In this document: positions 5,068 to 63,846 of the stretch, piece by piece
How the letters are laid out: each line of letters opens with the position of its first letter
How positions within the stretch are numbered: position 1 is the first letter of the stretch
DNA from: Amphiscolops sp. MND2022
Lineage: Eukaryota
Direction of reading: 5' to 3'
DNA: 64,000 nt
Assembly (NCBI GenBank): GCA_964187785.1
Contig: OZ076409.1
Span: 41,604,001 to 41,668,000 of the forward strand
Translations under genes and position numbers: made by a program
Notes under the pieces: model-generated
Seen by the model: only the letters and a program-made list of their open reading frames with translations
The model's database searches: none
Told to the model about the DNA's origin: nothing

Positions 5068-5091
5068 ATTCATACCCTGATTCTTGTTCAG

Positions 5092-16295: not shown

Positions 16296-17444
16296 CCTCC
16301 TCCTGGCCTGCACGTGATCTTAATCTGACATGGCCTCGTGATTCGATTGACCTCACATTTGCTGACTAGATATACCGCCAAGTGAAGCCTATCTACCAAT
16401 ATTACGTCCTTCAGCTGCTGTATTGAATCAATAGATCAGTTATAATGAGCAACTCTTGTTATTGATCATTTAAAACATTATCTCGTGCTATTTTTCATTT
16501 CAATTTGTATTTTTCATTCCACATTCTCGGTTTTGTGTTTGCTTTTTACTGAAACTTAAGTTTGTTGCCAAATTTTTATTTAATTAATTTTTTCCAAGTC
16601 TTGAATTCGCTGTCTTAATTGTTCAATTGATTGAATGCTTTCTTGTAAATCTAAATGATGCTCAATGATGACTGAAATGACATGAACTTTCAGATTTTAA
16701 TGCCGAGCCATTCGACCCTTAAAAACTAATGGTATCAACTTGTACATTATAGAAAAGCAAAGTATAGATGTCTTCTAATCTAAAAGTTAGTATATCTTAG
16801 CTCATTCTATTACTCTAAATAGTTGTGAACTATTAAATAAGATAACCGCGCGCATCTCAAAGTTTATAAATGTATTTTGACCGAACCTTTTTTTCAATCC
16901 AAATTTTTGCATTATAAAGAAAAAGGACAGTACAAACTTATTCAATTGCCACACCTTTCGGAGCTCTGAGGATTAATTGGTTATTTCCTAATACGTGAAT
17001 ATAAATTTATTTTGTGCTTCTTTATGATTATCAGGCGTCCAATGACATTAGATATGTATAGTACAAAGTATCTAGTATCTCCAATTAGCATCGACAGTAT
17101 CTGAAACCATAGAGCTACCCCAAACCGCATAAAATAAGTCCCACTCAGCAGTTTTCTAGGCATCGTATTTCACCACCTATTTGAAATTGTAAGACAGTTG
17201 AGAAAAAGCTTCAAATGGTTCTTTCTCTTTTCTTTGTTATATCAGATAATTGCAAAGATGTATTTTTGTCGGAAAATCTTCAGTGTCTACTTTTTGGCTG
17301 TTATTCTTGACGCCAACTGAGTTAAAAAGTGCGTGCTGTTATTCGCAAAAGTCATAAAGTTTTATTCTGATTCTAATTCTTGTAATACAATATCTCGTCC
17401 ATTTGCAACCTGCTCATAATATTATCCTTTCTATAATTCCTCAG

Positions 17445-23400: not shown

Positions 23401-26400
23401 CCCTTTATTTGAAGGTTTTTCACCAATTAGAATGGAAAGGTGTTTAATTTGAAACAACTAACTATTTCAAAATAGAGCCTGAGTAAGTTTCCCAAATATC
23501 ATTGTTTTTGCAACGATCCATTAGTGAATCAGTTAACAAAACTGGCTTTTTAACGACTTCTTCAAAACTGTTTTAGGGGATATCTCTTTTTATTAAATGC
23601 AAAAATAGGGACTGATATCGGCTAATAACACAACTCCGCATGGTTACAGTTTTTCATACTAGCAGCGATTTGTACTAAATATCAAAAACCACTTTAACCT
23701 TTTTAACAAAAAAAAACTAAAATTCGAAGTGACAACGACGAAGGACCAAAATATTTTTGATGAAAACAACACGTGACTGTTTCACTGTTTTCGAATTGTT
23801 GATGGTTCTTATTCGGGAGCAGATTTGATTGTAACTGCTTTTGACAACCTAATGCTATTTTGGAGGACGGTCCTTGCTCTTGGCTTCTTCAAATCAACAG
23901 GCGGCATTTCTTGGAATGGAAGTGGCTCGTAATTTTTAGTGTTTTAGTGATGCGAACACATGCTACGTATCAACTGGTGCTCAACACTAAATTATTTGCC
24001 GATCAGTTGTTGGAGAAGGCGTCTGACAAAGCCGTCAAACTGAGCTGCTTCAATGAGGAGAATACAGGAATGGCTCTCTACACTATCAAGGTTCATTTCA
24101 TCATCGCTCCACGAGTGTGAATTAGTTTTATAAAACATCTCAAAAATGAATTTTTTGGTTAAATATGCTTATTTCAAAGTTGCCTGATTACGGAAAAACC
24201 TGGAGCAAAAGTTACTCCTCTGATTTCTACCAAAATTACAGTGAAATATTTTGAAACCGAATGAAGATTTCAAATGACATCTCACATGGTGGTGACGGAG
24301 TATAACCGCACGATAATAATGCCGAAAAAATTTATAGCAGAACCGAAATAAATTTTTGGTTGTGATTGTCGCTCCATTCGATAGTGAGGTTTGAATGATG
24401 AAACTATTATGTAACTTTGTAACCTCTCAATTATGTAACTTTCTAACCGGTCGGATTAAATAAATACAAATTCTTTTATAATACCATTCGGTCACAATAT
24501 CGAGCGGCTAAAGTCATGACTACCTCACCGTGGTAATTTGAGGAATTTTGAAATGCTTCCATTTTTATTACGCAATAAATCAAAACCTCCAATGATCATT
24601 TTTTGAGTTTGAAATATATAATTCCGTTGAAACAAATTCTTACAATTTTGTAATTGGTGTCTCATTCCAAAAATTTTTGAGATTCGCTTGGTTAGACGTG
24701 ACTTTTGTGATTAACACAACATGTATGTTATAGTCTATACGATAGCCTGACGATTATATTCTAACCACATTTTATGAGCGAAGACCTTCGAACGTTAATG
24801 CGAACCGTGGGTGAGATGCAGTGAATTGTCGTGTATAAACTTTTTCGTGTATCGTGTATTTCGTGTATTTGCAAAAACCGTTACGTGTATTTGTGTATTT
24901 TAAAAAATCGTGTATTTTCGTGTATCTTCGTGTATTTTTTCTGAAAAATAAAACTTCGAAAGTTTGAATTTCAATTTACTCATTATAAAGAGCAATTTGA
25001 ACCAAAATTTCCAAGTTTTTTGGTGACATACGGTTTCTTCTATTTGCGCAACGGATGTTACATTGGGAAAATAGCCTTTTGACTGCTCCTGAGCTTGCAG
25101 AAATGGCTAAGACTTCCTGGATCAATTTTTTGAACAATACTGGCACATTTTTTGCGTCCCAAATGGAAATGGATCAACCGAAACGGGACCAGAGTTCAAA
25201 TATTGAGACATCAATGTCTTCCAATCGCTAGCGCGAGATGAACTCATAACGGCAAAATCCGATAATTTGCGTAATTTTGAATGTGTATGAGGCACGTCAA
25301 TAACATCAGGGGTATCTGTATTAGATTCTACATTTTGATCCAAAAACTGGAAAAACTGGATAAATAGTATCAAAGATCATAGAATAAAGACTGAATGGTA
25401 CCCAAAAAAGCACGGAAAAACTTACATTCGACAATAGTGATAGGCAAGGCTCGTTTCGCGCAAAGATCTTTTGCGATTGATTTCTCAACTGCAGATTGTT
25501 TTGAGTAAACAGGCTTATCTGTGGTAAGAGAATTTTCTGTTACTTTGATCGTGCCTTGTTTTGTAGGCCCAATGACATTTCTGGTTTGTTTCAGATGTAA
25601 ATCAGGTTCTTTCGGATGTAGCTGTTGATAGTGCTTTAATAAATTTCCCTTCGTATTTTTGCTATACTGACAGCTTTTTTTGCAAATTCGACAAATTGCC
25701 GGTTTACCTTTCGTAAATTGCTCAGGTATTATAAATAGAGAATCGTAATTTGCACGAGCCATTTATCTGAAAAAGAGATTAAGTTAATATTCATAGACCG
25801 TATAAGGTGTGAAAGGCTATGGCGTTAATATTAATGACGCGTGAATGCCGTTTAAATGAATTGCATCCTGCACAAATTTCAGCCAATGAAAATTCAGTTA
25901 TGTAATTCATACAATTCAGTTCATACGCTCAACTGCCACATTCACATGCTCAATTTAATTATCGTGTATATTTCAAAAAATCGTGTATCGTGTAGGTTCG
26001 TGTAATAAAGAAGCAAAAAATCGTGTATCGTGTACAATTCACTGGTGAGATTTGAAAGTTTTCATTATTTCTGCGATAGCATGAATAATATAGAATCCGT
26101 AAGGAGTTGTTTCAACCGAGTATCAGACGAATATGTTCGTTAACCGGGTACCTACTAAACAAGATGCAAACATTTTCTTCGGCAGTGCGTGCATATAAGC
26201 GTGAGATTTAAATTTCTCAAGCAGTCAACGACACTTAAGTAGCGATGAAGCGACTGAGTGTTAATTATGCATTCGTACACCGAATTAATTGAGATGATGC
26301 GAATGAGTGTTAATTATTCGTTCGCCGAGAGCCATTCAGAGTAATAATGGTTCGTCCACGGAATTCAGCGACATAAAAATTAGGTTCGTAGCATGAGTGT

Positions 26401-29400
26401 ATTTATGAAAGTTTTCGAACTTTTCGGAAAGACGTGCCTGAAAGGAAAGGTTTCCCGAAGAGCCAAAATTACAAAAAAGTTTTCAATTTTCGACAATTTT
26501 ATGCAAGTTTTGTTTAACTTGATTATGCAAACGAGTTCAGTGACCAAAATATTCAACCCTTCAGCATTCTTTTTCAATTGGAGAAGAAAAAGGCTTCGAA
26601 TGGACCAAACATTCGTATAACGTTTCCGTTGGCATAAATTTGTTGGCTAAAATCGAGCCCTCAAAAATATGTTGATGTAAAATAGTTCCGGGTAGAATTT
26701 ATCCCGGTGCTCAGCGGACATCTTGTGGATGCTTTTTGCGAGTAACTTTTTAGTCGGCGCAGTTTCGTTCTCTATCTGTCACTCTAGTGCCTTTCTTTAT
26801 AAATTTCAAAATTTTCACTAAATGGCTCCATGGCAAAGTAGTTTGAGCGTTGAATCTAAGGGACCCACATTCGAATCCCGTTCAGGGTCAAAAAAACTTC
26901 CCAATCGAACTATAGAAAATGCGTTTTCGGATAAAGCGTATGCAGTGATTTAATCTGGATAAAACGTCAAAAAGGTCTGAAAATCCGTTTGTTTTGCGTC
27001 TTCCCGGACGGAAATTGGGGGGTTCGAGTCTAGGCAACGCCGAAAATTTCATCTTTCAAATTGAATTAAGCTTTCTCCTAATCTCTAGAAGACATTTAAA
27101 GGCTCCTCATTAGGGTCAACTGATTATTTCATTTTTTCATGGAACTAAAAGACAAAAGGGTTGGTTTATGCTTCGGCATTGTTCGGCTTTTAGTGATTTT
27201 TTTCCAAAGGCTTGCCTCTTTGGTTTTCTTTTCTTTGGTTTCAAAATGTAAAACAAAAAGACTGAAACCCAAACCAGTGACCTGCAATTCTATATTTATT
27301 TTCAGGTTGACAGATTAGAATTTAAACTGGCACATTTTTTGCGTCCCAAATGGAAATGGATCAACCGAAACGGGACCAGAGTTCAAATATTGAGACATCA
27401 ATGTCTTCCAATCGCTAGCGCGAGATGAACTCATAACGGCAAAATCCGATAATTTGCGTAATTTTGAATGTGTATGAGGCACGTCAATAACATCAGGGGT
27501 ATCTGTATTAGATTCTACATTTTGATCCAAAAACTGGAAAAACTGGATAAATAGTATCAAAGATCATAGAATAAAGACTGAATGGTACCCAAAAAAGCAC
27601 GGAAAAACTTACATTCGACAATAGTGATAGGCAAGGCTCGTTTCGCGCAAAGATCTTTTGCGATTGATTTCTCAACTGCAGATTGTTTTGAGTAAACAGG
27701 CTTATCTGTGGTAAGAGAATTTTCTGTTACTTTGATCGTGCCTTGTTTTGTAGGCCCAATGACATTTCTGGTTTGTTTCAGATGTAAATCAGGTTCTTTC
27801 GGATGTAGCTGTTGATAGTGCTTTAATAAATTTCCCTTCGTATTTTTGCTATACTGACAGCTTTTTTTGCAAATTCGACAAATTGCCGGTTTACCTTTCG
27901 TAAATTGCTCAGGTATTATAAATAGAGAATCGTAATTTGCACGAGCCATTTATCTGAAAAAGAGATTAAGTTAATATTCATAGACCGTATAAGGTGTGAA
28001 AGGCTATGGCGTTAATATTAATGACGCGTGAATGCCGTTTAAATGAATTGCATCCTAGGTTCGTAGCATGAGTGTATTTATGAAAGTTTTCGAACTTTTC
28101 GGAAAGACGTGCCTGAAAGGAAAGGTTTCCCGAAGAGCCAAAATTACAAAAAAGTTTTCGATTTTCGACAATTTATGCAAGTTTTGTTTAACTTGATTAT
28201 GCAAACGAGTTCAGTGACCAAAATATTCAACCCTTCAGCATTCTTTTTCAATTGGAGAAGAAAAAAGCTTCGAATGGACCAAACATTCGTATAACGTTTC
28301 CGTTGGCATAAATTTGTTGGCTAAAATCGAGCCCTCAAAAATATGTTGATGTAAAATAGTTCCGGGTAGAATTTATCCCGGTGCTCAGCGGACATCTTGT
28401 CGATGCTTTTTGCGAGTAACTTTTTAGTCGGCGCAGTTTCGTTCTCTATCTGTCACTCTAGTGCCTTTCTTTATAAATTTCAAAATTTTCACTAAATGGC
28501 TCCATGGCAAAGTAGTTTGAGCGTTGAATCTAAGGGACCCACATTCGAATCCCGTTCAGGGTCAAAAAAACTTCCCAATCGAACTATAGAAAATGCGTTT
28601 TCGGATAAAGCGTATGCAGTGATTTAATCCGGATAAAACGTCAAAAAGGTCTGAAAATCCGTTTGTTTTGCGTCTTCCCGGACGGAAATTGGGGGGTTCG
28701 AGTCTAGGCAACGCCGAAAATTTCATCTTTCAAATTGAATTAAGCTTTCTCCTAATCTCTAGAAGACATTTAAAGGCTCCTCATTAGGGCCAACTGATTA
28801 TTTCAATTTTTCATGGAACTAAAAGACAAAAGGGTTGGTTTATGCTTCGGCATTGTTCGGCTTTTAGTGATTTTTTTCCAAAGGCTTGCCTCTTTGGTTT
28901 TCTTTTCTTTGGTTTCAAAATGTAAAACAAAAAGACTGAAACCCAAACCAGTGACCTGCAATTCTATATTTATTTTCAGGTTGACAGATTAGAATTTAAA
29001 CTGGCACATTTTTTGCGTCCCAAATGGAAATGGATCAACCGAAACGGGACCAGAGTTCAAATATTGAGACATCAATGTCTTCCAATCGCTAGCGCGAGAT
29101 GAACTCATAACGGCAAAATCCGATAATTTGCGTAATTTTGAATGTGTATGAGGCACGTCAATAACATCAGGGGTATCTGTATTAGATTCTACATTTTGAT
29201 CCAAAAACTGGAAAAACTGGATAAATAGTATCAAAGATCATAGAATAAAGACTGAATGGTACCCAAAAAAGCACGGAAAAACTTACATTCGACAATAGTG
29301 ATAGGCAAGGCTCGTTTCGCGCAAAGATCTTTTGCGATTGATTTCTCAACTGCAGATTGTTTTGAGTAAACAGGCTTATCTGTGGTAAGAGAATTTTCTG

Positions 29401-32400
29401 TTACTTTGATCGTGCCTTGTTTTGTAGGCCCAATGACATTTCTGGTTTGTTTCAGATGTAAATCAAGTCCTTTCGGATGTAGCTGTTGATAGCGCTTTAA
29501 TAATTTTCCCTTCGTATTTTTGCTATACTAACAGCTTTTTTTGCAAATTCGACAAATTGCCGGTTTACCTTTCGTAAATTGCTCAGGTATTATAAATAAA
29601 GAATTGCAATTTGCACGAGCCATTTATCTGAAAAAGAGATTAAGTTAATATTTATAGACCGTATAAGGTGTGAAAGGCTATGGCGTTAATATTAATGACG
29701 CGTGAATGCCGTTTAAATGAATTGCATCCTGCACAAATTTCAGCCAATGAAAATTCAGTTATGTAATTCATACAATTCAGTTCATACGCTCAACTGCCAC
29801 ATTCACATGCTCAATTTAATTATCGTGTATATTTCAAAAAATCGTGTACCGTGTAGGTTCGTGTAATAAAGAAGCAAAAAATCGTGTATCGTGTACAATT
29901 CACTGGTGAGATGTGAAAGTTTTCATTATTTCTGCGATAGCATGAATAATATAGAATCCGTAAGGAGTTGTTTCAACCGAGTATCAGACGAATATGTTCG
30001 TTAACCGGGTACCTACTAAACAAGATGCAAACATTTTCTTCGGCAGTGCGTGCATATAAGCGTGAGATTTAAATTTCTCAAGCAGTCAACGACACTTAAG
30101 GAGCGATGAAGCGACTGAGTGTTAATTATGCATTCGTACACCGAATTAATTGAGATGATGCGAATGAGTGTTAATTATTCGTTCGCCGAGAGCCATTCAG
30201 AGTAATAATGGTTCGTCCACGGAATTCAGCGACATAAAAATTAGGTTCGTAGCATGAGTGTATTTATGAAAGTTTTCGAACTTTTCGGAAAGACGTGCCT
30301 GAAAGGAAAGGTTTCCTGAAGAGCCAAAATTACAAAAAAGTTTTCGATTTTCGACAATTTTATGCAAGTTTTGTTTAACTTGATTATGCAAACAAGTTCA
30401 GCGACCAAAATATTCAACCCTTCAGCATTCTTTTTCAATTGGAGAAGAAAAAAGCTTCGAATGGACCAAACATTCGTATAACGTTTCCGTTGGCATAAAT
30501 TTGTTGGCTAAAATCGAGCCCTCAAAAATATGTTGATGTAAAATAGTTCCGGGTAGAAATTATCCCGGTGCTCAGCGGACATCTTGTCGATGCTTTTTGC
30601 GAGTAACTTTTTAGTCGGCGCAGTTTCGTTCTCTATCTGTCACTCTAGTGCCTTTCTTTATAAATTTCAAAATTTTCACTAAATGGCTCCATGGCAAAGT
30701 AGTTTGAGCGTTGAATCTAAGGGACCCACATTCGAATCCCGTTCAGGGTCAAAAAAAACTTCCCAATCGAACTATAGAAAATGCGTTTTCGGATAAAGCG
30801 TATGCAGTGATTTAATCCGGATAAAACGTCAAAAAGGTCTGAAAATCCGTTTGTTTTGCGTCTTCCCGGACGGAAATTGGGGGGTTCGAGTCTAGGCAAC
30901 GCCGAAAATTTCATCTTTCAAATTGAATTAAGCTTTCTCCTAATCTCTAGAAGACATTTAAAGGCTCCTCATTAGGGCCAACTGATTATTTCAATTTTTC
31001 ATGGAACTAAAAGACGAAAGGGTTGGTTTATGCTTCGGCATTGTTCGGCTTTTAGTGATTTTTTTCCAAAGGCTTGCCTCTTTGGTTTTCTTTTCTTTGG
31101 TTTCAAAATGTAAAACAAAAAGACTGAAACCCAAACCAGTGACCTGCAATTCTATATTTATTTTCAGGTTGACAGATTAGAATTTAAACTTTGTTCACTT
31201 TTAGGGAATCAAGAGCTTTATTTTTGAGTCATGAAAAGCAGTTAATTCGAACAGATTTCCAGTCAAAATGCATGAACACGATTCTAATTGAAATTAACTT
31301 CCTCTTATGGAAAAAGATTTCACTGTTAACCTGGACACAGTTTGTAGAAAAAAACTGGTTTTTTGATAATTTCAGTTGGGAAAGGCTTTTTGCGTCCCTT
31401 TTGTAAATTTTTGGGAGATTTTTTTTCATAAAAACAACCTTTTAGCATAATTCAAAGACGGCGGCTTTTGAGCCTTTAGCTGGGCGCCGACTTAAGACGT
31501 CCCCGTCTTGTTTTTAAGTTAGAATTGAACTATTCGCGTGATTTGCCTGCCTTTTTAAATTATTTACAAGTGTTACTCTAACCTTTGAATAAATGAGAGA
31601 TGACGTTTTAACGTGAATTTGATTTCCAGATGTAAAAATGCTACATTTACTTCAGTTTTTAGAGATATTCAATTGTTTAAATTCCTTTTCTAAAATGTTG
31701 CGATCTCCAATGTGAATCAAAAAGGTCCTTTCGAGTTATTTGATGTGCTTAAAAAGTTGAATTGCCCTTTATCGCGAAGCTCTCACGCTTTCATGACTGC
31801 GCAAGTTTAATATTTTTCCCGTCCGATGAATTTGAGGATCATCTTTTCTTTTGTGACTTGAAGTTCGTAGTGACGCCAAAATTTAATGGATTGTTTTTTA
31901 AAGCAAATTTCGGTTTACCATTTTTTCTTTGAATTTTGTTCAAACAGTAGCCTTTTCCAAAACCCTTCTATCTAAAAATGTTCTAAAAAAGATTAGCTAC
32001 TGGCATGACTTGGGACAAAAATTTCCTACTTCAAGAAATTTTCATGTTTTGAACATATTGAAAAAATCTTAGCCATTTGTTAGAATCAATGCATTAAATT
32101 TGGCGGTAACGGACTTAATGACGTTTCAGGGATCTGCTGCGGACATCGATGCCTTGTTTGTTCATCTGAAGGAAAGAATTGACAGATTGAAGCAAAAGTC
32201 TACTCAGGAAAATGAGCCGAGCAGTGACGAGGACCAAACACGGTTGGAAAACAAAAAACAACCAGAAAGAAGTGCGACTGTGGACGAAAAGAAAGAGGAA
32301 CCGCAAACCAATTCATCAACCAACTTGGGTACAGACGAAACTTCCAGTGGCGCTGATAGTTACTACAGATCAACGACCCCCTCGGGCCATTCTCTAGATG

Positions 32401-32456: not shown

Positions 32457-33269
32457 GAGTAGCGAGAAGCGAATCGTTGTTGAATCTTTTGATGTACCAG
32501 CAGTCGGAGTTTGTTTATCATCCCTGAAGTTGTTCTTGTTAAGTTGCTACCATGTTTGTGACACCGACTGTATGATGTAGAAGTTACTGTTTTCTTTGTA
32601 GAAGATGGTCAGTTGAATTGATAATGCATCTGATGGAATACTCTTGTCTTTTATTGCTCAAGAAGGTTGTGTATTTATTATTTCTGCTTTAGCAGGAATA
32701 TTATTGAAATCTCAAAATGTCTACTTTTTTCAGTACAATTCTTGGCACGATTCTGTTCGGCAGTGTCTATAAGCGTAAGAATTAAATTTCTCAAGCTGCC
32801 GACGACAATTCAATTCTTGTGCGATGGAACGAGCGAGTGGTAATTATGCATTCGTAAGCTGACGTCATTGAGATGAAGCTAGCGAATGTTCGTAATTGTG
32901 CTTTCGTTGCGCCGAGTTATTGAGATGAAGCAAATGAGTGTTAATTATACTTTCGCGGAGAGTTTCGCCTGCATTCAAATAGATATTTGCTTTAGTCCGA
33001 GATTTAGTACTATTACTACTAAAAGACTGAATTGATTCTGTTATACGGTACACATACCGAACCGATCCTTTCGGTTGACACTGTCAATCACAAAACTTTG
33101 GATCATTCTCATCATAGACATTTATTTATACATATGCTTACATATTGGTAAACAACATACACTATGGTACCAAAAAGCTAAGTACAGCTGAATTTTTTGA
33201 ATTTTTTTCAAGTCAAAAAAAAACATTTGTGAACAATTTCAATCAGTTACCGGAAGTTGTGCTTCGAAA

Positions 33270-34803
33270 ATGGTTAAACCGCTTGATTCATTTTTGGTTT
33301 GCAAAATTGTTACTCTTCGCGAGATTGGGTTATCTTACAATCAAATCAAAGAGAAATTGGGTTTGAAGTCACGATCAACAGCACAGTCAGCTTACAAGCG
33401 CTTTTTGAAAACCAGTTCTTATTCTCCAAAAAAACCACCAGGAAGACCGGAAAAACTTAGCAAAAAAGACAAAAGATTAATTATAAGAAGCGTCAAAAAC
33501 GATCCCAAAACTACATTACAAAGAATCAGGGTAAAGTATAATTCTTTTGCAACCTCAAAAAGTGTCTCAAGATCTACAATTCGGCGAGTTCTGAAGAAGT
33601 ATGGGCTAGTTTCTAGAGTGGCGGCTAAAAAATTTCAGCTCAATAAAAAACAACGAACAACGAGGAAAAAATGGTGCTTGCGAATGTCCAAGAAGCCGCT
33701 CGGTTTTTTGTCCAGCCTTGCACTCACTGAAAAAAGTACATAGTAAAAAATTTTCAATTTTGGGAAGGAAAATCTTTCACTCGTATTCAGGTTTTTTTCC
33801 ATCAAATTTGCTAACTGGAGTCGGCGAGCAACAGGCGCTGTAGCGTAGTGGTTAATTCCAATGGGTGGCATCCCGAAGACACGGGTTCGATTCCGCGTAC
33901 GGCCCAAATATTTTACGATCGTCAAACATACACAGAGTCCGCAAATAGACGAAAATTTTCAGCAAAAAAATCGGAAATTTTCAAAAAAAATCTCAAAGTT
34001 TCGGAATTTTCCTAATTTTTTTATCGCAACACCAAACGGCCCCTCCTACAAACTTTTCGGCACTGTGAGACAATTTTTTCTCAACACCAAAGGGTCTCCC
34101 TTCGAAATTTTTCGGCACTGTGAGACAAAAAAATCAAAAATTTAGAAAAAAAATCGCAGATTTTTGTAGTACTCTACTTTTGCTATTCTTTTTCTCATGA
34201 AGTTTTACATAATAATCTTGGCTGGATGGAAAAGGATTCTGGGAAAATGTGGTTTTCACTGATGAAACTCGTGTGCGTCTGAACAGTGACGGTATTGTAA
34301 GAGTTTTCCGAGAAAAAGGATCGCGTTTCCACTCAAAAAATATTCAAGGGCAGAACACTGATAAACGCTCGCTTATGTTCTGGGGAGCTATTCGATCGGA
34401 TGGCAGGAAGATGCTAATTAGATGCCCGGCAACACTCAATAGCAGCGGCTATGTCGAAATTCTTGAAAAGTATGACAGAAATTTGCACCTACCGGACATT
34501 GTTTTCCAGCACGATAATGCCCCAATTCACAGAAGCAGAGAGGTTTCCAACTATCTAAGTGAAAAGAAGTGGGATGTGCTCGAATGGCCTCCGTATAGTC
34601 CTGATTTGAACCCCATGGAAAATATTTGGGCTATACTGAAGAAATCCCTGCAAGGACAAACTCTAACGTGGGAAAGTTTGGAAGAAACAGTGATTGATAT
34701 TTGGAACAATATCAGTCCCGAAATTATCCGAAATATGTACGCATCTTATGAGAGTCGCCTCGTAAAAACTATAAAAAACGATGGAAATATGATTGGTTAT
34801 TAG
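33270..34803 (+). CDS. Tc1 transposase, two segments 33270-33702 + 34235-34803 (333 aa when joined)
   Basis: HTH, PGRP hinge, VFTDE, FWGAI, FQHDNAP, WPPYSPDLNPME with 34 residues between the second D and E. Removing the GT..AG segment 33703-34234 gives ..KKPLG|FWENVVFTDE in frame. Confidence 0.9.
33834..33906 (+). ncRNA. tRNA-like sequence inside the Tc1 intervening segment
   Basis: A box TAGCGTAGTGG (33841), B box GGTTCGATTCC (33884); imperfect stems. Confidence 0.55.
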
Positions 34804-35111
34804 TGTGTTTGTCTCCTAATTTGATTATATTTTTTTCTGTTTAAATTTCAAATTTTCCTCTCAGTTTTTAAAAATTCAACAGGTGTACGTAGCTTTCTGG
34901 TACCATAGTGTATGTTACTTTGCCTTATATCGAAATTGCATCAGTTAGATACTTTTCGTAGCTAGAGAATAGATCGTTTCACTGACAGTATTTATGTTCT
35001 GGAAAGATACTTTTAAATAAACTTCTTTGTTTTCTTATTCAACCAAGAATATAGAACATGACGCAGTCAGCAAATTGAAATTACCAAGAATATTTCAACA
35101 AAACAAAGAAA

Positions 35112-37355
35112 ATGACAGAAGAAAGTAAAATTGAAGTACCAAATTTCGAAGCCACATCAGACGGAAAGAAGATATTCACACCGAAACAATGGCTCGAAAG
35201 ATTTCGGCAATATGCGAAAAGGAAACACAAAATGGACATCACCGAATTGATACGGGGAGCCGAAATGACACAAACCGGTTGGACCGGAAAAGACGCCGAA
35301 ATCCAAGAAGACTTCATATGGGGAATCGGCCCCGAAGCTCTATACCAAATGACACGAGCGGAGTACAAAACCGAACCAGACAGAATAGCGGTAAAAGATC
35401 TAATCCGACTGTTTAACGAATATTTCTTACCAAAACGAAACACATACCATAACCGCGGAGAATTCTTCTGGACAAAACAGACTGAATCCGAAACACCTGA
35501 GGATTTCTGGCGGAGATTAATAGAGATAGAGAAAGAATGTGCATTCGAAGGAATAACAGCCGAAGATTTACTCATTTCAAAATTTATGACCGCAATTACG
35601 GACACGAAACTCCGAGACAAATTAATGAAAGAGAAGAAACTTGAACTGAAGAAAACAATCGAAATGATCAAACAAAACACGTACGAAAGAAAGAATCGGA
35701 AAAACACCATACCGGAAGCTTTGATATCAAACCGAGAAAAAGAAATAAAAGAAGAACCAATACAAAGAATGGAAAGATCGGACACAAGACCGAAAAACAA
35801 ATTTATAAACGAAAAACCTTGCAGATTTTGCAACGCACCGAACTGGAATCCAACTCACAAATGTCCGGCATTAGGAAAACTCTGCAATAACTGCGGAAAG
35901 AAAGGACATTTCGCACGCGTATGCAAACAAAGAGAGAACTACAAACGCAAGGTACGTAATGTGACCGAAGACGAGTCCGAGATAACTGGAGGAGAATCCG
36001 ACGAATCAGAAACGAGCATAAACAGAATTGAAAGAATTAACAGAATTACCGACAGAAATAAATATCTTACAACAACAGTGAAAGTGAACGGAATTGAAAA
36101 AGAATTTATAGTGGATACCGGATCACCGATTTCAATAATGCCTGCAGACGAAAACATAATGAAACAAACCGAAATACAGAAAGTCAAACACCGGTATCAA
36201 GATGTGAACAGAAATGAAGTAAAATTTCGGGGGAAAATACCGGCGGATGTCGAATACGAAAACAACAAACAAAAAATGCAAATACTGATAACGGAACGAA
36301 ACATTACACCACTACTCGGAATGGACTGGATGAAAAAGTTCAAATTAACAATCGGTAATATCCGAACAGAAGAAAACAATCAATCAGAAAGGAAAAGAAT
36401 AATCGAGAAATTTCCAGATTTATTCAAAAACAACACTACAATAAAAGATACCGAGATAAATATTCAACTAAAACCGGGACACTATCCGATGAAACAGAAA
36501 GCGAGACCAATCCCACTACACCTACAAGAAGATGTCGGGAAAGAATTGGAAAGATTAATAAAAACCGGACATCTGGAGAAAGTAAAACACGTGGACGAAG
36601 ATTGTTTTGTTTCACCGGTAGTAATTACGGTAAAGAACGACAAATCAGTAAAAATTGCACTGGACTCGAGAAAATTAAATGAAAGCTGTATAAAGATTCG
36701 ACCACACATGCCGAACATGGAAGAACTGCTAAATCAAATTTCGGTAGAGATCACTAGAGACCGAACAAAAGAATTGATGATGTCAAAAATCGATCTTGAT
36801 TACGCATACGGCCAAATGAAATTATCAAAAGAAACAAGCCGCCAATGTGTATTCGCAATAACCGGAGAGAAGTTTAGCGGATACTACCGATTCAAGAAGG
36901 GATTTTACGGTCTCGCAGATATACCGACAATCTTCCAAGAGAAAATTGATCGAACTTTAGAATACTGCACACCGGCATGGCTAGATGACATAATAGTGGT
37001 GACCCGAGGCGATCGGAAAGAACACGAGAAGAAATTATTCGATGTATTAAAGAAATTGGAAGACGCGGGTTACCGAGCAAGCGAACGGAAATCCGAATTC
37101 TTTCTAAAAAGCACAAAATGGCTGGGACACGAAATTGATGAAACGGGAATAAAACCGAACAAAGAAAAAGTAAAAGCAATTTTAGAATTGAAACACCCGG
37201 AAAATCAAAAGCAACTAAAATCATTCCTCGGCGCAATACAATACCTTGCAAATTTCTTACCGAGACTATCGGAAAAAACTGACAGACTCCGAAAACTCCT
37301 AAAAAGGATTCGGTATGGAACTGGGGAAAACAACAAGAAGATTTCAACAGCATAA
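35112..37355 (+). CDS. Gypsy gag-pol part 1: gag zinc knuckle, aspartic protease, reverse transcriptase
   Basis: CNNCGKKGHFARVC, FIVDTGS, KIDLDYAYGQ, WLDDIIV; frame breaks near 37305. Confidence 0.9.
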   Translation: MTEESKIEVPNFEATSDGKKIFTPKQWLERFRQYAKRKHKMDITELIRGAEMTQTGWTGKDAEIQEDFIWGIGPEALYQMTRAEYKTEPDRIAVKDLIRLFNEYFLPKRNTYHNRGEFFWTKQTESETPEDFWRRLIEIEKECAFEGITAEDLLISKFMTAITDTKLRDKLMKEKKLELKKTIEMIKQNTYERKNRKNTIPEALISNREKEIKEEPIQRMERSDTRPKNKFINEKPCRFCNAPNWNPTHKCPALGKLCNNCGKKGHFARVCKQRENYKRKVRNVTEDESEITGGESDESETSINRIERINRITDRNKYLTTTVKVNGIEKEFIVDTGSPISIMPADENIMKQTEIQKVKHRYQDVNRNEVKFRGKIPADVEYENNKQKMQILITERNITPLLGMDWMKKFKLTIGNIRTEENNQSERKRIIEKFPDLFKNNTTIKDTEINIQLKPGHYPMKQKARPIPLHLQEDVGKELERLIKTGHLEKVKHVDEDCFVSPVVITVKNDKSVKIALDSRKLNESCIKIRPHMPNMEELLNQISVEITRDRTKELMMSKIDLDYAYGQMKLSKETSRQCVFAITGEKFSGYYRFKKGFYGLADIPTIFQEKIDRTLEYCTPAWLDDIIVVTRGDRKEHEKKLFDVLKKLEDAGYRASERKSEFFLKSTKWLGHEIDETGIKPNKEKVKAILELKHPENQKQLKSFLGAIQYLANFLPRLSEKTDRLRKLLKRIRYGTGENNKKISTA

Positions 37356-37360
37356 AAGAA

Positions 37361-38746
37361 ATGTTCACCGAAGAACCTTGCCTGGCACATTATGCAAAAG
37401 ACCGAGAAAATATAGTTACAACCGATGCAAGTAAAACCGGACTTGGCATAACCTTATGGCAAAAACAATCGGACGGAGAAATAAAACCGATAGCATTCGG
37501 TAGCAGATACCTTAACGATAGCGAAAAAAACTACTCAATCGGAGAATTAGAATTACTCGCAGTTGTTTGGGGACTAGAAAAGTTCCGATTTTATTTATAC
37601 GGAAAGAAAGTCTTTTTATACACAGAACACCAAGCACTTGAACCTTTGATTAAAAGAAATCGATGCAATAGACAATACAGCGCAAGACTAACAAGATGGT
37701 TAGATCGGCTTGCGCACTTTGATATTGCCATTCAACACATTGCAGGAAGTAATCTGATTTTTACCGACTTTCTAAGTAGAAATCCGGTAGAAAGCGCATC
37801 AAACGAAGACGTATACGACGAGCAATACGTAATCAATATTCTTTCCGAGCACGCCGAATTAAACGTAAAATACGGAACGCTGTTCGCCGACCAATCACAA
37901 GCCGCACCGGAAAGAAATAAAACAACCGAAGAGCATTCTAACAACCAATCACATCAAAATAGAATATTCGAGAATAACCGAGACGTGAACAAAATGAACA
38001 AACAAACGAACAGCGCACCAAATAAACGCCAACGAAAAGCTAAAACGGAAAGTTCAATCCGATATCTAAATTCCAATTCAAATCAAAATTCAAACTTGTT
38101 AAACAATTTACCTTTATTTAAGAACGAAATGGACAGAGATTACTTCCATTGGGGCGCGACGGCCGAAATCATGGAGATAATCCGAAGACGCAGAAAGAGC
38201 CCAGAAACCCTCAGACTCGTAGAAAGACGATTGGAAATTTCCCGACCGGGAACAATGCGCCGGAAATTCGACATGAACGCGCAAAGACAGATCTGGGTCC
38301 CCTCTAGACCGAACAAAAGAAGTCGCCAAGAAATAGCTGAGATAGACGGCGAATTGCTGACAAGAGCAAACAGATTCGGTGGGGGTTACCAACCATTAGA
38401 GGAAAGAATGGAAGAAACCCAAGAGACACCACAACCGGAGATGGCCGAAGAAACCGAACAAGAAAGTGAGGGCGAAAGCCAAGTAATCCGGGGCGACAAC
38501 TTTCCCATCGTAGACCTAAAAGCATACAATACCGAGGGGAAAGAGGCCCAATTCATTCAAATCAACCAAATCATCGAAAAAACAACCGGAAATCAAAAGA
38601 ACACCGAAGAAACAATTAAAAAAGCTGAATTCAACTTCATGCTCGATCTGAAGACGCTGATCGCAAAATCATGCGTCCCGAGTACGGGACGCAATGAGGC
38701 GAGGCGAAAAGAATACGGCTCCAGAACACTACCGAGCAAACTTTGA
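37361..38746 (+). CDS. Gypsy pol part 2: RNase H plus long spacer
   Basis: VTTDASKTGLG, YSIGELELLAVVWG, YTEHQAL, DFLSR. Confidence 0.85.
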   Translation: MFTEEPCLAHYAKDRENIVTTDASKTGLGITLWQKQSDGEIKPIAFGSRYLNDSEKNYSIGELELLAVVWGLEKFRFYLYGKKVFLYTEHQALEPLIKRNRCNRQYSARLTRWLDRLAHFDIAIQHIAGSNLIFTDFLSRNPVESASNEDVYDEQYVINILSEHAELNVKYGTLFADQSQAAPERNKTTEEHSNNQSHQNRIFENNRDVNKMNKQTNSAPNKRQRKAKTESSIRYLNSNSNQNSNLLNNLPLFKNEMDRDYFHWGATAEIMEIIRRRRKSPETLRLVERRLEISRPGTMRRKFDMNAQRQIWVPSRPNKRSRQEIAEIDGELLTRANRFGGGYQPLEERMEETQETPQPEMAEETEQESEGESQVIRGDNFPIVDLKAYNTEGKEAQFIQINQIIEKTTGNQKNTEETIKKAEFNFMLDLKTLIAKSCVPSTGRNEARRKEYGSRTLPSKL

Positions 38747-40286
38747 GAAACTAAACAATAAGTGGGGACTGACATTCAACGACGACCGAATTGTTGTACC
38801 CGCTGAATTGAGAAAGAAACTGCTAGACACGCTGCATTTCGGACATGCCGGAACTACCAAAATGTCAGCCGAGGCCAAAATCTTCTGGTGGCCAAACATG
38901 CTAAAGGAAATAGAAGATAAAACAAAAAACTGTGTGGCCTGCATGTCATCGGGTAAGAACTTAAAATACCAACTACCGAAACAAAATTTTGGGAAACTAA
39001 AAACACTAACCGAACCGGGACAAGAAATCCAAATTGATTTTTCGAGAAAACTGAACAATAAAAATTTGAACGGCGACCATCAAATCCTAATTGCAATAGA
39101 TAGATTCAGCAAATGGCCAACGGCAAAAATTTGCAAATCCTCGGAAACTAAAGAGGTAATAAACTTTCTGAAACAAAATTTTAATCTGTACGGACTACCA
39201 GAGAAAATAAAAACGGACAAAGGTGGAGCGTTCGTTTCGAAAGAATACAAAGAATTTTGTAAATCGAAAAACATCGAAATCGAATATAGCACACCGAGAA
39301 TGCATACCGGCACGGGAGCAGTAGAACGCGCGATACAAACATTGAAAAACCTCATAATCGCGAACCTAGAGGATAAAACATGCCTAACCGAATGTGTAAA
39401 TAAAGCATTAAACGTAATGCGATTTACAATACATACGGGATTAAAAATAACACCGTTTGAATTACATCACGGCCGGAAACCACGAACCGAACTAACAAAT
39501 ATAATAAAAGATGGAAAAACTTTCCTTTCTAAATGGTCGGAACTAACTGTTTCAGCTAACAATCGACCGAAAATACCGATCTACGTAACCAGAAATGGTG
39601 AGGGAGAGGTATCAAACCACCTGATCATGGCCCGAACAAAAACGGAAGAAAAAGCTATGACCGAAAAATCACCAAAGAAGAAAAATCCGGTTGGTAAATA
39701 CCCTTTTCAATTCTTCGAAAAAAACCATAATAAGAAACCACTTGAAGGCAGATTTCAAAGAAAATTACAAACGGCAATAAGTGGTACGGAACACACCGTA
39801 ACCACTGATACCGGAAAAATAATCCACCGAAAATTTATTTCGGAACCGATTATATTTCAGAAAGACAAGAAGGCAACACCGAAGATCGGAGACAACATCA
39901 ACCCAAAAAACCGACATTGCCTGAGGGGGGTCGATGGAAAATACACCCAGTGGAACGAAATCCTCAGGGATGTATTGAACGGAAAGCTGAAAATTGTACA
40001 AAATCAACGGGCCGAATCCGACTCTGAGAGTGAGGAGGGTGAAATCGAGGAGGAAGAAAGCGATTTCGAAAACCACGACACCTCAGAGAGGAACGGAAAA
40101 TACAAACCCGTAACAACATCACCAGAAGATGAATTGAATCTTCATACGGACGGTGAGATAAATCCGGGTGAGAACCAAATAAATAATAAAATTACCGAAA
40201 ATGAAAAAATAAGACGGTCAAACCGTGAAAGTAGACAACCGAACAGATACGGGGGGGTTACATACACAAAAAACTTTTGGATATGA
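38694..40286 (+). CDS. Gypsy pol part 3: integrase with long C-terminal tail
   Basis: HHCC (LHFGHAG..CVAC), IQIDF, KTDKGGAF, VERAIQTLK, TPFELHHGRKPRT. Confidence 0.9.
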   Translation: MRRGEKNTAPEHYRANFEKLNNKWGLTFNDDRIVVPAELRKKLLDTLHFGHAGTTKMSAEAKIFWWPNMLKEIEDKTKNCVACMSSGKNLKYQLPKQNFGKLKTLTEPGQEIQIDFSRKLNNKNLNGDHQILIAIDRFSKWPTAKICKSSETKEVINFLKQNFNLYGLPEKIKTDKGGAFVSKEYKEFCKSKNIEIEYSTPRMHTGTGAVERAIQTLKNLIIANLEDKTCLTECVNKALNVMRFTIHTGLKITPFELHHGRKPRTELTNIIKDGKTFLSKWSELTVSANNRPKIPIYVTRNGEGEVSNHLIMARTKTEEKAMTEKSPKKKNPVGKYPFQFFEKNHNKKPLEGRFQRKLQTAISGTEHTVTTDTGKIIHRKFISEPIIFQKDKKATPKIGDNINPKNRHCLRGVDGKYTQWNEILRDVLNGKLKIVQNQRAESDSESEEGEIEEEESDFENHDTSERNGKYKPVTTSPEDELNLHTDGEINPGENQINNKITENEKIRRSNRESRQPNRYGGVTYTKNFWI

Positions 40287-40849
40287 TGTTGATGAATTAA
40301 AATTGTTACAGGTATCACCGAGAGATGGAACAGTCGAAAGGAGCCGCCGAAACCACTGACGAAGCCAGCCGACTTCATTCGAGAAAACACCCCAACACCG
40401 GGAACCTCGAAACAGTAACCGAAAGGAACTTAGAAGGGAGGAAATGTTATACGGTACACATACCGAACCGATCCTTTCGGTTGACACTGTCAATCACAAA
40501 ACTTTAGATCATTCTCATCATAGACATTTATTTATACATATGCTTACATATTGGTAAACAACATGTGTTACTTTGCCTTATATCGAAATTGCATCAGTTA
40601 GATACTTTTCGTAGCTAGAGAATAGATCGTTTCACTGACAGTATTTATAATCTGAAAAGATACTTTTAAATAAACTTATTTGTTTTCTTATTCAACCAAG
40701 AATATAGAACAGATTCTAGTCAAGACTGAATTGATTGAGTCAGAAATTGATTCTAGAAAGAAATACTTGATGACATTTACATGTACAGATTTTTTAAACA
40801 ACAGATTTAAAGGCGGTATAAACTGGTACAGTGCTTAATCGTGCGCTAA

Positions 40850-59240: not shown

Positions 59241-61979
59241 TCCCGTTAACAACTTTATCACTGAGTTCCATTCTAAAATATACTATTACTGATTTCCAAG
59301 AAAATCAAAACTTTCTAGACTTAAGGCTAAAAACTCTTCGTCTTTTGAACATACTCAGAGGTTGCTTTTGAGGAAGTTCTGGAAACATAGAAAGTGCGAA
59401 AAGCATCAATAGATGCCTCTTCAGTGCTAAATCAGCTTTCTTACAAACGAAAATATAAACAAGACGCCCGCTGTCCAGCAGGATAGTTTCCGTCCAAACT
59501 GTTCTTGCAATAACATATTTTTGAGGCTTAAAAGAAGCCATTGCACTATCAAAACGCATAAAACTTTGATGAAACAAGTTTTGATATTTCTTGGAAAAGG
59601 TCATCCCATTTCAGAAGACAACACACTGAACACCTGCTTGTTTTGTTGTCGACCTGTGTGGATACCAAAACCTAACCCACCAATTTGTTTCATATAATGG
59701 ACGGAAAGTCATTAAAAACGTCAAAATTTGGAAAGTTTTGTCTTTCTGACAAATTTGCGGTCACTTGAGGAACTTTTTAAAGAAACTGCAGATGTATTTT
59801 TAAATGCCTATTGGATACCGGTTCCAGTCGTTCTTGAATGACAAAATTGCTCAAAAAATTGCGGTAAAAATGTCTACTGGATAACGCATTTGTTCGTCGT
59901 TGGAAGTTTTCATTCTTCCAGCAATGGAAACTTCTCAAAAAGACAGAACTTTGTATGAGAAACATTGAAATCAGATTTTTTCTTTTCAGACTCATCAGGG
60001 TCATTTGTGAAGTCTTTTTCAAGCGAAATCGTGCAGCTCATTTCCAAAAAGCATACCTCATAGCTAGTTTGTTTCTTTTTGAGTGTTTTGAGCTGTCCTA
60101 ACCACCAAAAACTTTCAAAACGTGTTCACGAACCGTAGGAAAAACGACAAACTAGAAGGATTTGGGTTTCTATGTTTTGGGGAGAAATTGAGACATGTTT
60201 TTAATGACATCTTACGTTCATTTTTTCAAAAAGTTAGCTGGACGATATATTCAAATGTTAATCAATAATTCAAAGTTCTAATTCACTAAAAGTTTTTCAA
60301 ATTTTCAAAAAAAAAACAGTTCAAAAACGAAAAAAATGGACTTTTCTGACTTCTTGGTTACTCTGGGGACCTTTTGAAGCTATTTTCGAACATGAAACTG
60401 CAATTGATTTTCAACGTCTACTCTATTTTGCTTGCTGTTGAATGTTTTAATTTTTGTAATATACCAACTTTACGAAAACTCCAACATTATTGGTTTTCTG
60501 GAAATTTTTGGATTTTCGACTCATTTGGGTCATTCTCAGATAGTGTTTTTACCTAGAAAACTACAAAGTTTTCCTTCAAAAAGCGTACGCATAGCTTGAT
60601 AAATCGTCTGGAGATTTCGGACATACTAGTTATCGAAAACGTTCACAAACAATCACTTAACTTTACAAGTAAAAAGAAAATCTGATACACATTTTTGGTT
60701 AATATTAAGACATTTTCCAAACACAAATCAGCAAGTGCCTCACACAAAAGCCAACTGGATATCAAAGGCATTTTTTGTTGAACTTTTCAATTATTCTTAT
60801 CCTGAAAACGTTATGAAGAATTCACAGACTTTGCACATATTTTTTCACTTCCCGACTCACTTGTGACGTTTTGAAGTACCTGATGTAAAACACTGTACAT
60901 TTCTCCTCAAAAAACGACACTACATACCTGATTTGTTCACTTTTGGTTGTTTTGTACCTTCTTACTCATAAAAAATCTTAAAATTGTACTCAAATAACAA
61001 GAAGATGAAAGATAAACGGGGCTTTTCGACAAATTTTGTGTCAAATTAAAGCACGTTTATATCAAAAACCTGCTTTTATCCTTTCAAAAAGCTTACTGAA
61101 CGACACAATCAGTTGTTGTTGAACAGTTTCAGAGTTCTAGTTTATTAAAATGTTGAAAATTTATAAAAATTGCGTTGGAGAATCAAAAATTGTAAAAATA
61201 AGTTTTTTTTTACTATTTTGGAAATTTTTCGTACAAAACAGCATTTATCTCCCCGAACAAACCTATTGGACAACGAATTCCCTAGTTGCTGAACGTTTTC
61301 AACTTTTTGATTTATGAATTCTCTTGAAACTTTGACGAAAGTTCCTTTCAAACGTGCAGAATCGGATTATTTTGAAAATTTTGTCATTTTTGATCGCAAT
61401 TTGAGCGTTTTTCAATAGAAAACTGCAATTATTTCTTGACGACTTGACGAAAGCCCTTCGGACCACGAATTGTTTCCTTGTTGATTGTCTTCAACTTTCT
61501 AAGCCACCAAGTTTTTCGAAAAACAGACAAAAATTGCACGAAAACTTTAAAAATCTGGTTTTGGAATTTTTGTCAATTGCGGCCCTAGTGTCAAGTCACG
61601 AAATCTATCGCAAAATTGACAAAAATTTCTAAAAACGATAGTAAAAACTAATCAGTTTTTACTTCTTTTGGGGTCATTTTTGAGTCTTTCTGAGGTCATT
61701 GGGGTCAACAAAAAAGTCCGAAAACCTCCAAAAATACATACCGCAAGATACTAATTTTACGTTAGTTGAATTCTATGGGTGAAACGCTTTATCTTGAATA
61801 TAAATTTGGTGCTTGGCAAATTTTGTAAAAAAACCGTTTGAATTAAATATTTAATTATTTTCTTTTTCCTAATGAAATTTGGACAAAAATAAAAATGGAG
61901 GAAATCCCTCCTAAAAAAGGACCCTTTTGTGAAGTAGTTTTTCGAAAAAAAAACAAGCTTAGTTCTGAAAAAACTCATA

Positions 61980-63680
61980 CACTATGGTATCAAAAAGCGA
62001 CGTACAGCTGAAAATCAAATCTTATTCAGTTTGTGAAGAACTTTTCATTTTCATTCTCAACCGGAAGTGAAATCAATCACTCTTGATTTAAACATTGTTG
62101 AAAATGGTCAAACCATTGGATTCATACGTTGTTTGCAAAATCGTTACACTTCGGGAAAGGGGTTTATCAAAGAGATTAAAGAAAAGTTGGGCCTTAAATC
62201 TCGATCGACAGCTCAAACAGCTTATCAGCGTTTTTGAGAACGAACTCTTATGTGGCGAAAAAACCTCCAGGCCGGCCAGAAAAGCTCAGCAAAAAAGAGC
62301 GAACACTAATATTTTGAAGAGTGGAAAAGACCCAAAAACAACATTAGAACGAGTAAGAGTACTGCAAATCTTTTTCAACGTCAACAACAAGACGTACAAT
62401 TCGAAGAATCCTGAAGAAGTACGGAATTGTTTCTAGAAAAGCCGCAAAAAAGATCAACTTGAACAAAACACAAAGACTGATCAGAAAACGTTGGTGCTCG
62501 AGTATGGTGAAAAAGCCCCTTGGTTTTTATCCAGCTTCAATTTTCCACCGAAAATGAGAAAAAGATTTGGAATTTTTTGAAAAAAAATAATTGAAAAAAA
62601 TCTCAAATTGCCGGAAAAACCAAAACGAAATAAAAAGTTTCATCAAATCAATCAATTTCACAGTGAACTGATAGCCCTTTTGATGGCCCTCCCAATGATA
62701 CAAAACGGGAAAATCGAACGTCGGCACTAACCTAAGGCTCAAAAAGCGCAAAGTTTAGAAAATCTGCTAGGGACTTTTATGAAAAGACAAAAAACTTCGA
62801 AACACCAAAATATCACAAAATTTGCAAGGGGACCTTTTAGTCACAATCGGTTTCGTATGTTACGTTAAAAAAGGAGAAATGAAAGGGGGGACCCTCTGCA
62901 CTACGTTAGATGCATTTTCGCTGCCCAGATTTGGGTGATACTGTAAACTTGAAGAATGTTGTTTTTTTTTCACTCGAAATTTTGCATTTTCGTTCTGAGT
63001 TTTGGTTGGATGGAAACTAGGCTTCTGGGAAAACGTCGTATTTTCAGACGAAACTCGTGTGCGCTTGAATATTGACGGCGTTGTGCGCGTGTTCAAGAAA
63101 ACTGGTCGTCGCTTTTGCCCCAAAAACACCCAAGAACTAAGCACAGGCAGAAGATCTATGATGTTTGAGGGGGCATCAGATCAGATGGCAGGAAAATGCT
63201 ACTTAAATGTCCAGCAACACTTAACAGTTACGGATAATTGGAGACTTTAAAGCAATACGATCGACATTTGATCATACAGGAATTGGTGTTCCAGCAAGAC
63301 AACGCCCCAGTACACAAAAGTGAAGTTGTTCGCAATTTTCTAGCCCGAAAGCAACGGGAGGTGCTGGATTGGCCAGCTTACAGTCCTGACCTGAATCCTT
63401 TTGAAAATCTTTGAGCCATTTAAAAAAAAATCTTGCGAGGTCAGATTGTTAGCTGGGAGATTTTAGAAGAAAAGGTTATGGAAGCGTGGAACAACATAAA
63501 CCCTGAAGTTGTTCGCAACTTGTACTTATCGTATGGGAATCGCCTGGTGAAGGTAATCAAAAACCATGGAAGTTTGACGGGATTTTGATTTATGATTTAT
63601 TTCAGCAAATGTTTCAAAAACTCTGTTCTGAGTTTTTTTTAAAAAAAAGTTGGTGTACGTAGCTTTTTGATACCATAGTG
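61980..63680 (+). mobile_element. Tc1 transposon related to 33160-34910, transposase pseudogenised
   Basis: TA|CACTATGGTATCAAAAAGCGACGTACA ... TGTACGTAGCTTTTTGATACCATAGTG|TA; MVKPLDSYVVCKIVTLRE, VFSDETRVRL, QQDNAP, WPAYSPDLNP with frameshifts and a stop; intervening segment 62523-63020. Confidence 0.92.
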
Positions 63681-63846
63681 TAAATGGGCTAAAGATATGC
63701 AATTGTAAGAATGCTGATCTTTAGGATGCATTGTAGAAATGTTTTATTCTACACCTGAGAAATTCTATCAACAGCAAACACATTCAAGAGAGGCCTTTCA
63801 GTGATATATGAAGAACAATTATACCTTTGAATATCCGCCTACTAAA

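What the first reader, a model, noticed from the sequence alone, without database searches (positions are those of the whole stretch)
33703..34234. Tc1 transposase split by a stem-closed GT-AG segment: candidate structured 'cargo' intron
Seen: a 532-bp segment starts GTTTTTTGTCCAGCC and ends GGCTGGATGGAAAAG; removing it restores an uninterrupted 333-aa DD34E ORF. On the sense strand, 33704-33717 pairs with 34220-34233 over 14 contiguous positions, and every non-Watson-Crick position is G-U, so the first and last G face each other. The donor (GTTTTT) is weak and the acceptor has no polypyrimidine tract. Both ORF halves are intact and the element sits in a young LTR. Known: structure-closed ends occur in euglenid non-conventional introns and transposon-derived introners. 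Inference: the segment is removed from the transcript (or DNA) with help from the stem, giving the transposon a bay that tolerates foreign cargo.
Basis: partly seen in the sequence, partly recalled or inferred. Interest (0 to 1): 0.85.

Follow-up and report, generated by a model that had tools for sequence, protein, structure and literature searches.

The report
Stem-closed intron in a Tc1 transposase
Two distantly related families of a jumping gene in this animal carry the same insert in the middle of their transposase gene, with short complementary ends kept while the interior is replaced; it is likely an intron that must be spliced out to make the enzyme, likely helped by its two ends pairing.

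Summary
In detail: a 532-bp GT…AG segment with a 14-bp WC/G·U end-stem splits a 333-aa DD34E Tc1 transposase between its DNA-binding and catalytic halves. It is no one-off insertion. About 296 filled junctions exist in the genome, against 0 empty. A second family, 72% identical in protein with saturated synonymous sites (pS 0.77, pN 0.16; exon 1 omega about 0.09), has the segment at the same phase-1 site with the same 12–13-nt arms and an unalignable interior. Segment-bearing copies form one clade among unsplit relatives. So full-length transposase was likely made from segment-bearing templates, that is by splicing; no RNA could be tested. GT and AG stay fixed while the stem's register shifts, which favours the spliceosome. 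The stem is likely needed, but shows no two-sided compensatory change and is out-competed in family A's exonic context. The 'cargo bay' is mostly ordinary intron turnover. Verdict: a real, likely transposon-derived, structure-assisted intron in a recently mobile Tc1; a new variant of a known kind.

The parts
33160..34910 (+). Tc1 (DD34E) element, family A, with ~40-bp imperfect TIRs and TA target duplication (33158-33159, 34911-34912)
33270..33702 (+). Exon 1: 144 codons plus 1 base, paired-type DNA-binding half
   Evidence: (PF01498 E 7.7e-14)
33703..34234 (+). Inferred phase-1 GT-AG intron (532-bp deletion derivative of an ~890-bp form)
33704..33717 (+). 5' arm of the end-stem, overlapping the donor
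33834..33906 (+). tRNA-like piece in the interior of one A subfamily (A/B-box resemblance recalled; not called by ARAGORN or Rfam)
34022..34137 (+). Two units of an abundant host dispersed repeat inside the segment
   Evidence: (families D5, D8)
34220..34233 (+). 3' arm of the end-stem, next to the acceptor AG
34235..34803 (+). Exon 2: DDE catalytic half to the stop codon; first in-frame Met is residue 192, after D153
   Evidence: (PF13358 E 1e-20)
33039..40711 (+). Host gypsy LTR element: 5' LTR 33039-35058 (interrupted by the Tc1), gag-pol ORFs, 3' LTR 40445-40711, 5-bp target duplication
61976..63682 (+). Decayed copy of the second family (B1), 70% identical in DNA
62523..63020 (+). Family B segment (498 bp) at the same codon position, same arms, different interior, CTAG acceptor

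Best explanation
The segment is likely a spliceosomal GT-AG intron, likely gained once by a small inverted-repeat insertion in the ancestor of two Tc1 families, whose 12-14-nt complementary ends likely pair in the pre-mRNA and help define an otherwise weak pair of splice sites. Shown: position, phase, GT and AG, and both arms are shared by families A and B while synonymous sites are saturated and the interiors cannot be aligned; no empty copy was found. Inferred: (1) the gene is transcribed and the segment is spliced out to give 333-aa transposase (about 0.88); (2) the spliceosome does the cutting, because the junctions follow GT and AG while the stem's register against them shifts between families (1 nt beyond the stem in A, 3 nt in B); (3) the stem is needed rather than inhibitory, because a needed element would be purged of breaks at each founding of a new active lineage, whereas a pure brake would not; it would loop out an interior full of repeat debris; (4) unspliced RNA would give a DNA-binding-only product (157 aa in A, 194 aa in B), a possible repressor.
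For: 296 filled 5' junction matches, control 4; 0 empty junctions exact or degenerate with 1 mismatch. 60 of 60 family A loci have the filled 5' junction, 56 show both ends. 42 of 48 distinct A copies and 11 of 43 B copies give a 333-aa ORF on GT-AG removal; 31 of 48 A copies show TA on both sides, 47 distinct left flanks, mean 2.4 differences per 999 coding bases. A vs B: 72% aa, pS 0.77, pN 0.16; exon 1 omega 0.09; exon 2 dN 0.19 with dS saturated; fixed differences between B subfamilies pN/pS 0.48, 0.35, 0.2 on small counts. Segment clade SH-aLRT 100, unsplit relatives 46-57% identical outside it; a TIR-flanked intact unsplit relative exists elsewhere (L185). Arms align between A and B better than 2000 of 2000 shuffles; the adjacent 50 nt do not (103 and 1102 of 2000). 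Arms lie in different reading frames in A and B, so not a protein constraint. Third positions near the junction are no more alike than elsewhere (14 of 25 vs 114 of 241), so no recent conversion. Stem probability 1.0 in B2 with up to 200-nt flanks. Host donors read by eye are degenerate (T at +3 in 10 of 27).
Against: No RNA evidence. No two-sided compensatory change: A vs B2 differ by one A-U to G·U change and a terminal pair; the other G·U change is in the decayed B1 subfamily. Only two independent intact lineages. In A the end-helix falls from probability 1.0 (segment alone) to 0.0 (window copy, 30-nt flanks) or 0.01-0.67 (longer copies), displaced by a hairpin over the donor; forcing it costs about 8 kcal/mol. 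A stem over the donor would be expected to block U1 (recalled). No free donor element with these ends was found, so the transposon origin is geometry only. Other GT/GC-AG pairs near the ends also give stop-free ORFs (2 in A, 5 in B).
Confidence: 0.6

Rival explanations
1. An ordinary spliceosomal intron; the arms are conserved as linear signals (or relic inverted repeats) and pairing is irrelevant or merely dampens splicing, as a P-element-style throttle.
For: No two-sided covariation; helix displaced in family A context; host donors are degenerate, so a T-rich donor may need no help; intron retention gives a DNA-binding-only protein, as in P elements (PMC7776569, passages).
Against: Conserved blocks are 12-13 nt, reach well beyond splice-site dinucleotides, are complementary to each other, and survived saturation; a neutral relic should have decayed like the flanking 50 nt.
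Confidence: 0.18
2. Structure-guided, non-spliceosomal or hybrid removal (SOS-type: AKAP17A/CAAP1/RTCB), with the arms acting as the paired inverted repeat.
For: SOS splicing is triggered by pairing of inverted repeats irrespective of sequence or interior and can cooperate with the spliceosome (PMC12779559, parts 1-2 and passages); the stem buries the donor.
Against: SOS cuts are imprecise, rarely GU-AG and leave indels, and were shown with 54-nt Tc1 repeats; here the arms are 12-14 nt, GT and AG are fixed in both families, and protein length is 333 aa in both.
Confidence: 0.12
3. The segment is a disabling insertion; all copies are non-autonomous passengers moved by an unsplit master absent from this assembly.
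For: Unsplit relatives share the TIR motif; within-family singleton changes are neutral (7 synonymous, 33 non-synonymous on 226/773 sites); only 113 and 121 of about 3,500 candidates were scored.
Against: Would need two independent insertions at one site with identical arms and unrelated interiors, or strong purifying selection on a dead gene; no full-length stop-free unsplit match among the 120 and 132 listed; a second public assembly lists family A only as catalytic-half ORFs of at most 184 aa among 15 of 82 members shown.
Confidence: 0.07
4. The segment is excised precisely from DNA (somatic or programmed).
For: Inverted-repeat ends and a short direct repeat at the junction.
Against: 0 empty junctions in the assembly; an excised copy would be expected to spread.
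Confidence: 0.03

Closest known systems
Intron-bearing Tc1 elements (Minos; mollusc TLEWI)
   Same: Tc1-type transposase split by a spliceosomal-type intron; Minos has two exons and a 60-bp intron (PMC2874221, passage).
   Different: Here the intron is 0.5-0.9 kb with conserved paired ends and a turning-over interior; TLEWI are low-copy, DD36E, mostly without TIRs (bioRxiv 10.1101/656579, parts 1-2 of 4), whereas this clade is DD34E, TIR- and TA-flanked, with hundreds of young copies.
Introner / TE-derived introns (Micromonas IE type)
   Same: Short inverted repeats at the ends; in family B the geometry fits a donor carried by the element and an AG taken from a 3-bp target duplication (PMC11282704, parts 1-2; PMC9860276, passages).
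   Different: Single site only, spread by its host transposon; no free family or second insertion site found; ends are old and apparently under selection, not merely young.
Euglenid conventional/intermediate introns
   Same: GT-AG borders plus a stem joining the ends (PMC4770533, passages).
   Different: Animal genome; stem includes +1/+2 and lacks the CAG/CTG +4..+6/-8..-6 register; no compensatory series.
SOS splicing (C. elegans, human)
   Same: Paired inverted repeats around a dispensable interior inside an exon (PMC12779559).
   Different: SOS is imprecise and rarely GU-AG; here the restored frame is exact and conserved.
P-element IVS3
   Same: Retention would give a truncated DNA-binding product (PMC7776569, passages).
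   Different: Different superfamily; regulation there is by an exonic silencer and piRNA, not an end-stem; regulation here is untested.

Membership tests
Tc1 (DD34E) transposon | DD34E triad, paired-type HTH and DDE_3 domains | tested here: met
Tc1 (DD34E) transposon | TIRs and TA target duplication | tested here: met
   TA on both sides in 31 of 48 copies, one side visible in the other 17
U2 spliceosomal intron | GT and AG ends restoring a conserved frame | tested here: met
   one decayed B1 copy (L076) has a changed donor
U2 spliceosomal intron | Spliced transcript and lariat | not testable with these tools
   no RNA holder listed
U2 spliceosomal intron | Branch point and pyrimidine tract like host introns | tested here: inconclusive
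   T-rich tract upstream of the 3' arm by sequence; the 50 nt before the arm are not conserved A vs B; no quantitative comparison with host introns was made
Introner element | Similar introns at many unrelated sites | tested here: not met
   all 30 loci lie in the Tc1; of 14 off-family matches to the 3' arm, 3 are Tc1 relatives and 11 have no partner arm
Introner element | TIR at the ends | tested here: met
   12-14-nt imperfect inverted repeat
Introner element | Target-site duplication supplying a splice site | tested here: inconclusive
   2-, 3-, 5- or 9-bp readings all fit; one site cannot decide
SOS-spliced insertion | Imprecise, mostly non-GU-AG junctions | tested here: inconclusive
   sequence conservation points to a precise GT-AG junction; no reads
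SOS-spliced insertion | Dependence on AKAP17A, CAAP1, RTCB | not tested
Euglenid non-conventional intron | Non-canonical borders with CAG/CTG pairing at +4..+6/-8..-6 | tested here: not met
   borders are GT-AG, register differs
TLEWI | DD36E, no TIRs, low copy, 3-6 exons | tested here: not met
   DD34E, TIRs, about 296 junctions, two exons

The most novel reading that the evidence does not exclude
A still-mobile DNA transposon depends for its own transposase on structure-guided excision: a 12-14-bp end-stem, not linear signals, defines the intron (SOS-type or SOS-spliceosome hybrid made precise by fixed GT and AG), so any interior is tolerated and the element has turned a host anti-transposon repair pathway into its expression step.
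Probability: 0.15. Interest if true: 0.88.

Novelty: new variant of a known kind. Interest (0 to 1): 0.6.

Why it matters
It is a datable intron gain caught inside a multicopy element, where the inverted-repeat ends, usually treated as decaying relics of the inserting element, appear to have been kept by selection. With hundreds of natural length variants (42 to 908 bp) it offers a ready test of whether end-pairing is required for splicing of a transposon-derived intron, and of whether SOS-type or spliceosomal chemistry handles it. If the stem proves dispensable it is an ordinary intron in a Tc1.

Tried and rejected
No RNA holder was listed for the element; this is no evidence either way. Free MITE/introner donor: pattern for the 3' arm outside family B gave 14 matches, none a paired non-Tc1 element; only one arm variant was tried. 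Further lineages with other arms: 8 matches, 6 B-type copies with one arm change and 2 chance. Protein-level constraint on the arms rejected (different frames). Recent gene conversion rejected. Internal restart of exon 2 rejected (first Met is residue 192). A spliced 333-aa A or B protein was not among 96 hits of 330 aa or more (best 59%); weak evidence, as those gene calls ignore introns. tRNA-like interior piece: no ARAGORN call, no Rfam match at E<=1 in 3 loci, 13 copies, all in the Tc1. EZH2 homologue search found nothing. End-pairing and pyrimidine content of host introns were not quantified, which leaves open how rare such a stem is among this animal's own introns. Earlier-findings look-ups gave nothing relevant. 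Paper searches (listings only, unless cited as read) showed no report of a conserved end-stem intron in a mobile Tc1; the library lacks most subscription papers, and bioRxiv supplements were not seen. PMC12130899 was searched for six terms and gave nothing relevant.

Full report
Observation. The 532-bp segment, its ends, the 333-aa DD34E ORF after removal and the 14-bp stem (11 WC, 3 G·U) are as described. Exon 1 holds the HTH domain and exon 2 the DDE domain, so the segment sits in the linker, in phase 1 of Gly145. The stem is beyond chance (1 of 3000 shuffles by length and by energy) and strand-biased (7 contiguous pairs on the antisense strand). The element spans 33160-34910 with TA on both sides, in the 5' LTR of a gypsy element whose LTRs differ at 5 of 266 positions.

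The family. A genome search with the segment gave 150 candidates, 40 scored; all 30 loci returned lie within the same Tc1. A search with exon 1, which is blind to the segment, gave 144 candidates. All 60 loci of these two searches (they overlap) have the filled 5' junction; 56 show both ends, and 4 lack the right end within the locus. After removing duplicates, 42 of 48 A copies give 333 aa on GT-AG removal, with a mean of 2.4 differences per 999 coding bases and 47 different left flanks: a very recent burst. These loci were top-scoring hits, so they are biased to intact copies. A junction pattern covering both families found 296 filled sites (control 4); of 19 of these fetched, 18 were Tc1 and 1 was chance. 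The empty junction was found 0 times, exact or degenerate with one mismatch. Interiors run from 336 to 908 bp in A, mostly by internal deletion; the window's copy is one such derivative.

A second family decides the matter. The decayed Tc1 at 61976-63682 has a segment at the same codon position. Its family (B) has 11 intact copies among 43 examined. One A copy against three B copies: 72% amino-acid identity, pS 0.77 (saturated), pN 0.16; exon 1 omega 0.09; exon 2 dN 0.19 with dS unmeasurable (NG86). Fixed differences between B subfamilies also lean synonymous (pN/pS 0.48, 0.35, 0.2; 58, 22 and 5 changes). Singletons within A are neutral, as expected once copies have inserted; that class 2 elements evolve neutrally within genomes and under purifying selection across transfers is stated in PMC12400950 (passage). 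Quick IQ-TREE trees put all segment-bearing rows in one clade (SH-aLRT 100) among unsplit lineages 46-57% identical to A, with an open polytomy at their base. Unsplit relatives in this genome gave no full-length stop-free match among 120 and 132 rows (113 and 121 of about 3,500 candidates scored); an intact, TIR-flanked unsplit relative occurs in a metagenome contig. The simplest reading is one gain before A and B split, followed by long selection on both halves. Exon 2 cannot restart usefully (first Met is residue 192) and unspliced readings stop at 157 aa in 40 of 42 intact A copies and 194 aa in 8 of 11 B copies. Hence full-length protein was likely made by removing the segment from RNA. 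This is inference: no RNA run was listed.

The stem. Between A and B only the ends align: both arms beat 2000 of 2000 shuffles, the neighbouring 50 nt do not (103 and 1102 of 2000); a decayed third lineage (L178) has a third interior with the same arms. The arms are in different frames in the two families and third codon positions near the junction are as diverged as elsewhere (14 of 25 vs 114 of 241). Against a structural role: there is no two-sided compensatory change; and with exon flanks the family A helix is displaced by a hairpin across the donor (probability 0.0 for the window copy at 30 nt or more of flank; 0.47-0.74 at 30 nt and 0.0-0.01 at 120 nt for two longer copies), while family B keeps it (1.0 for B2, 0.76-1.0 for B1). 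In B the first G pairs with position -4 and TAG hangs free; in A the helix runs +2 to -2. That the junctions follow GT and AG, not the helix end, argues for the spliceosome over a cut-at-the-stem mechanism.

Host context. Reading 27 candidate introns of EZH2 and chaperonin genes by eye, boundaries from frame continuity only: T at +3 in 10, apparent GC donors in 3, AAG acceptors in 2.

Origin and cargo. Family B's geometry fits an introner-type insertion (element-borne GT, AG from a short target duplication; PMC11282704 parts 1-2, PMC9860276 passages), but several duplication lengths fit and no free element was found. Interiors contain units of an abundant host repeat and, in 13 A copies, a tRNA-like piece found nowhere else by that search. 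This is tolerance, not evidence of selected cargo.

Comparison. Introns in Tc1-type transposases are known but called rare (Minos, PMC2874221 passage; TLEWI, bioRxiv 10.1101/656579 parts 1-2 of 4). End-paired GT-AG introns are known in euglenids (PMC4770533 passages); pairing-triggered excision of transposons from animal mRNA is known as SOS splicing (PMC12779559 parts 1-2 of 13 and passages), but is imprecise. My searches listed no report of a conserved end-stem intron in a mobile Tc1. That a stem over a donor usually hinders U1 is recalled, not from a call. My guess at the host taxon is also recalled and untested, and nothing rests on it.

Verdict. Real feature; removal from RNA about 0.88; spliceosomal intron with a needed stem 0.60; ordinary or throttled intron 0.18; SOS-type 0.12; dead passengers 0.07; DNA excision 0.03. 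New variant of a known kind; interest 0.6.

Noticed in passing
L098 (G000:C7) and L238 (G000:C1): Two decayed B copies at different places carry a 42-bp segment consisting of little more than the two arms: a natural minimal hairpin.
   Followed up: partly
L121 (G000:C1:83453062-83454402): An A copy whose 336-bp segment is in frame; the search reports a 465-aa open frame with no stop, so it could be translated unspliced.
   Followed up: no
window 5081-16292: EZH2-like gene (MCSS, CXC, SET exons); three of four introns read have T at +3.
   Followed up: partly
L211-L222 (chaperonin CCT genes): Degenerate donors, with apparent GC donors in 3 of 23 introns read by eye; unverified by RNA.
   Followed up: partly
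window 25139-31051: Three to four near-identical tandem blocks spaced 1.7-2.2 kb, with a small C2H2/BED-like zinc-finger ORF on the minus strand.
   Followed up: no
window 48260-51611: Decayed copia-type LTR element (gag, integrase-associated and RT matches).
   Followed up: no
window 4000-21600 and elsewhere: Very abundant dispersed repeat in both orientations; pieces of it occur inside both the A and B segments.
   Followed up: partly
G000:C4:35254000-35268000 (L230, L231): Cluster of five decayed B-type copies sharing a one-base change in the 3' arm.
   Followed up: partly
L061-L079: B1 subfamily amplified after acquiring shared frameshifts, so non-autonomous copies are also mobilised.
   Followed up: partly
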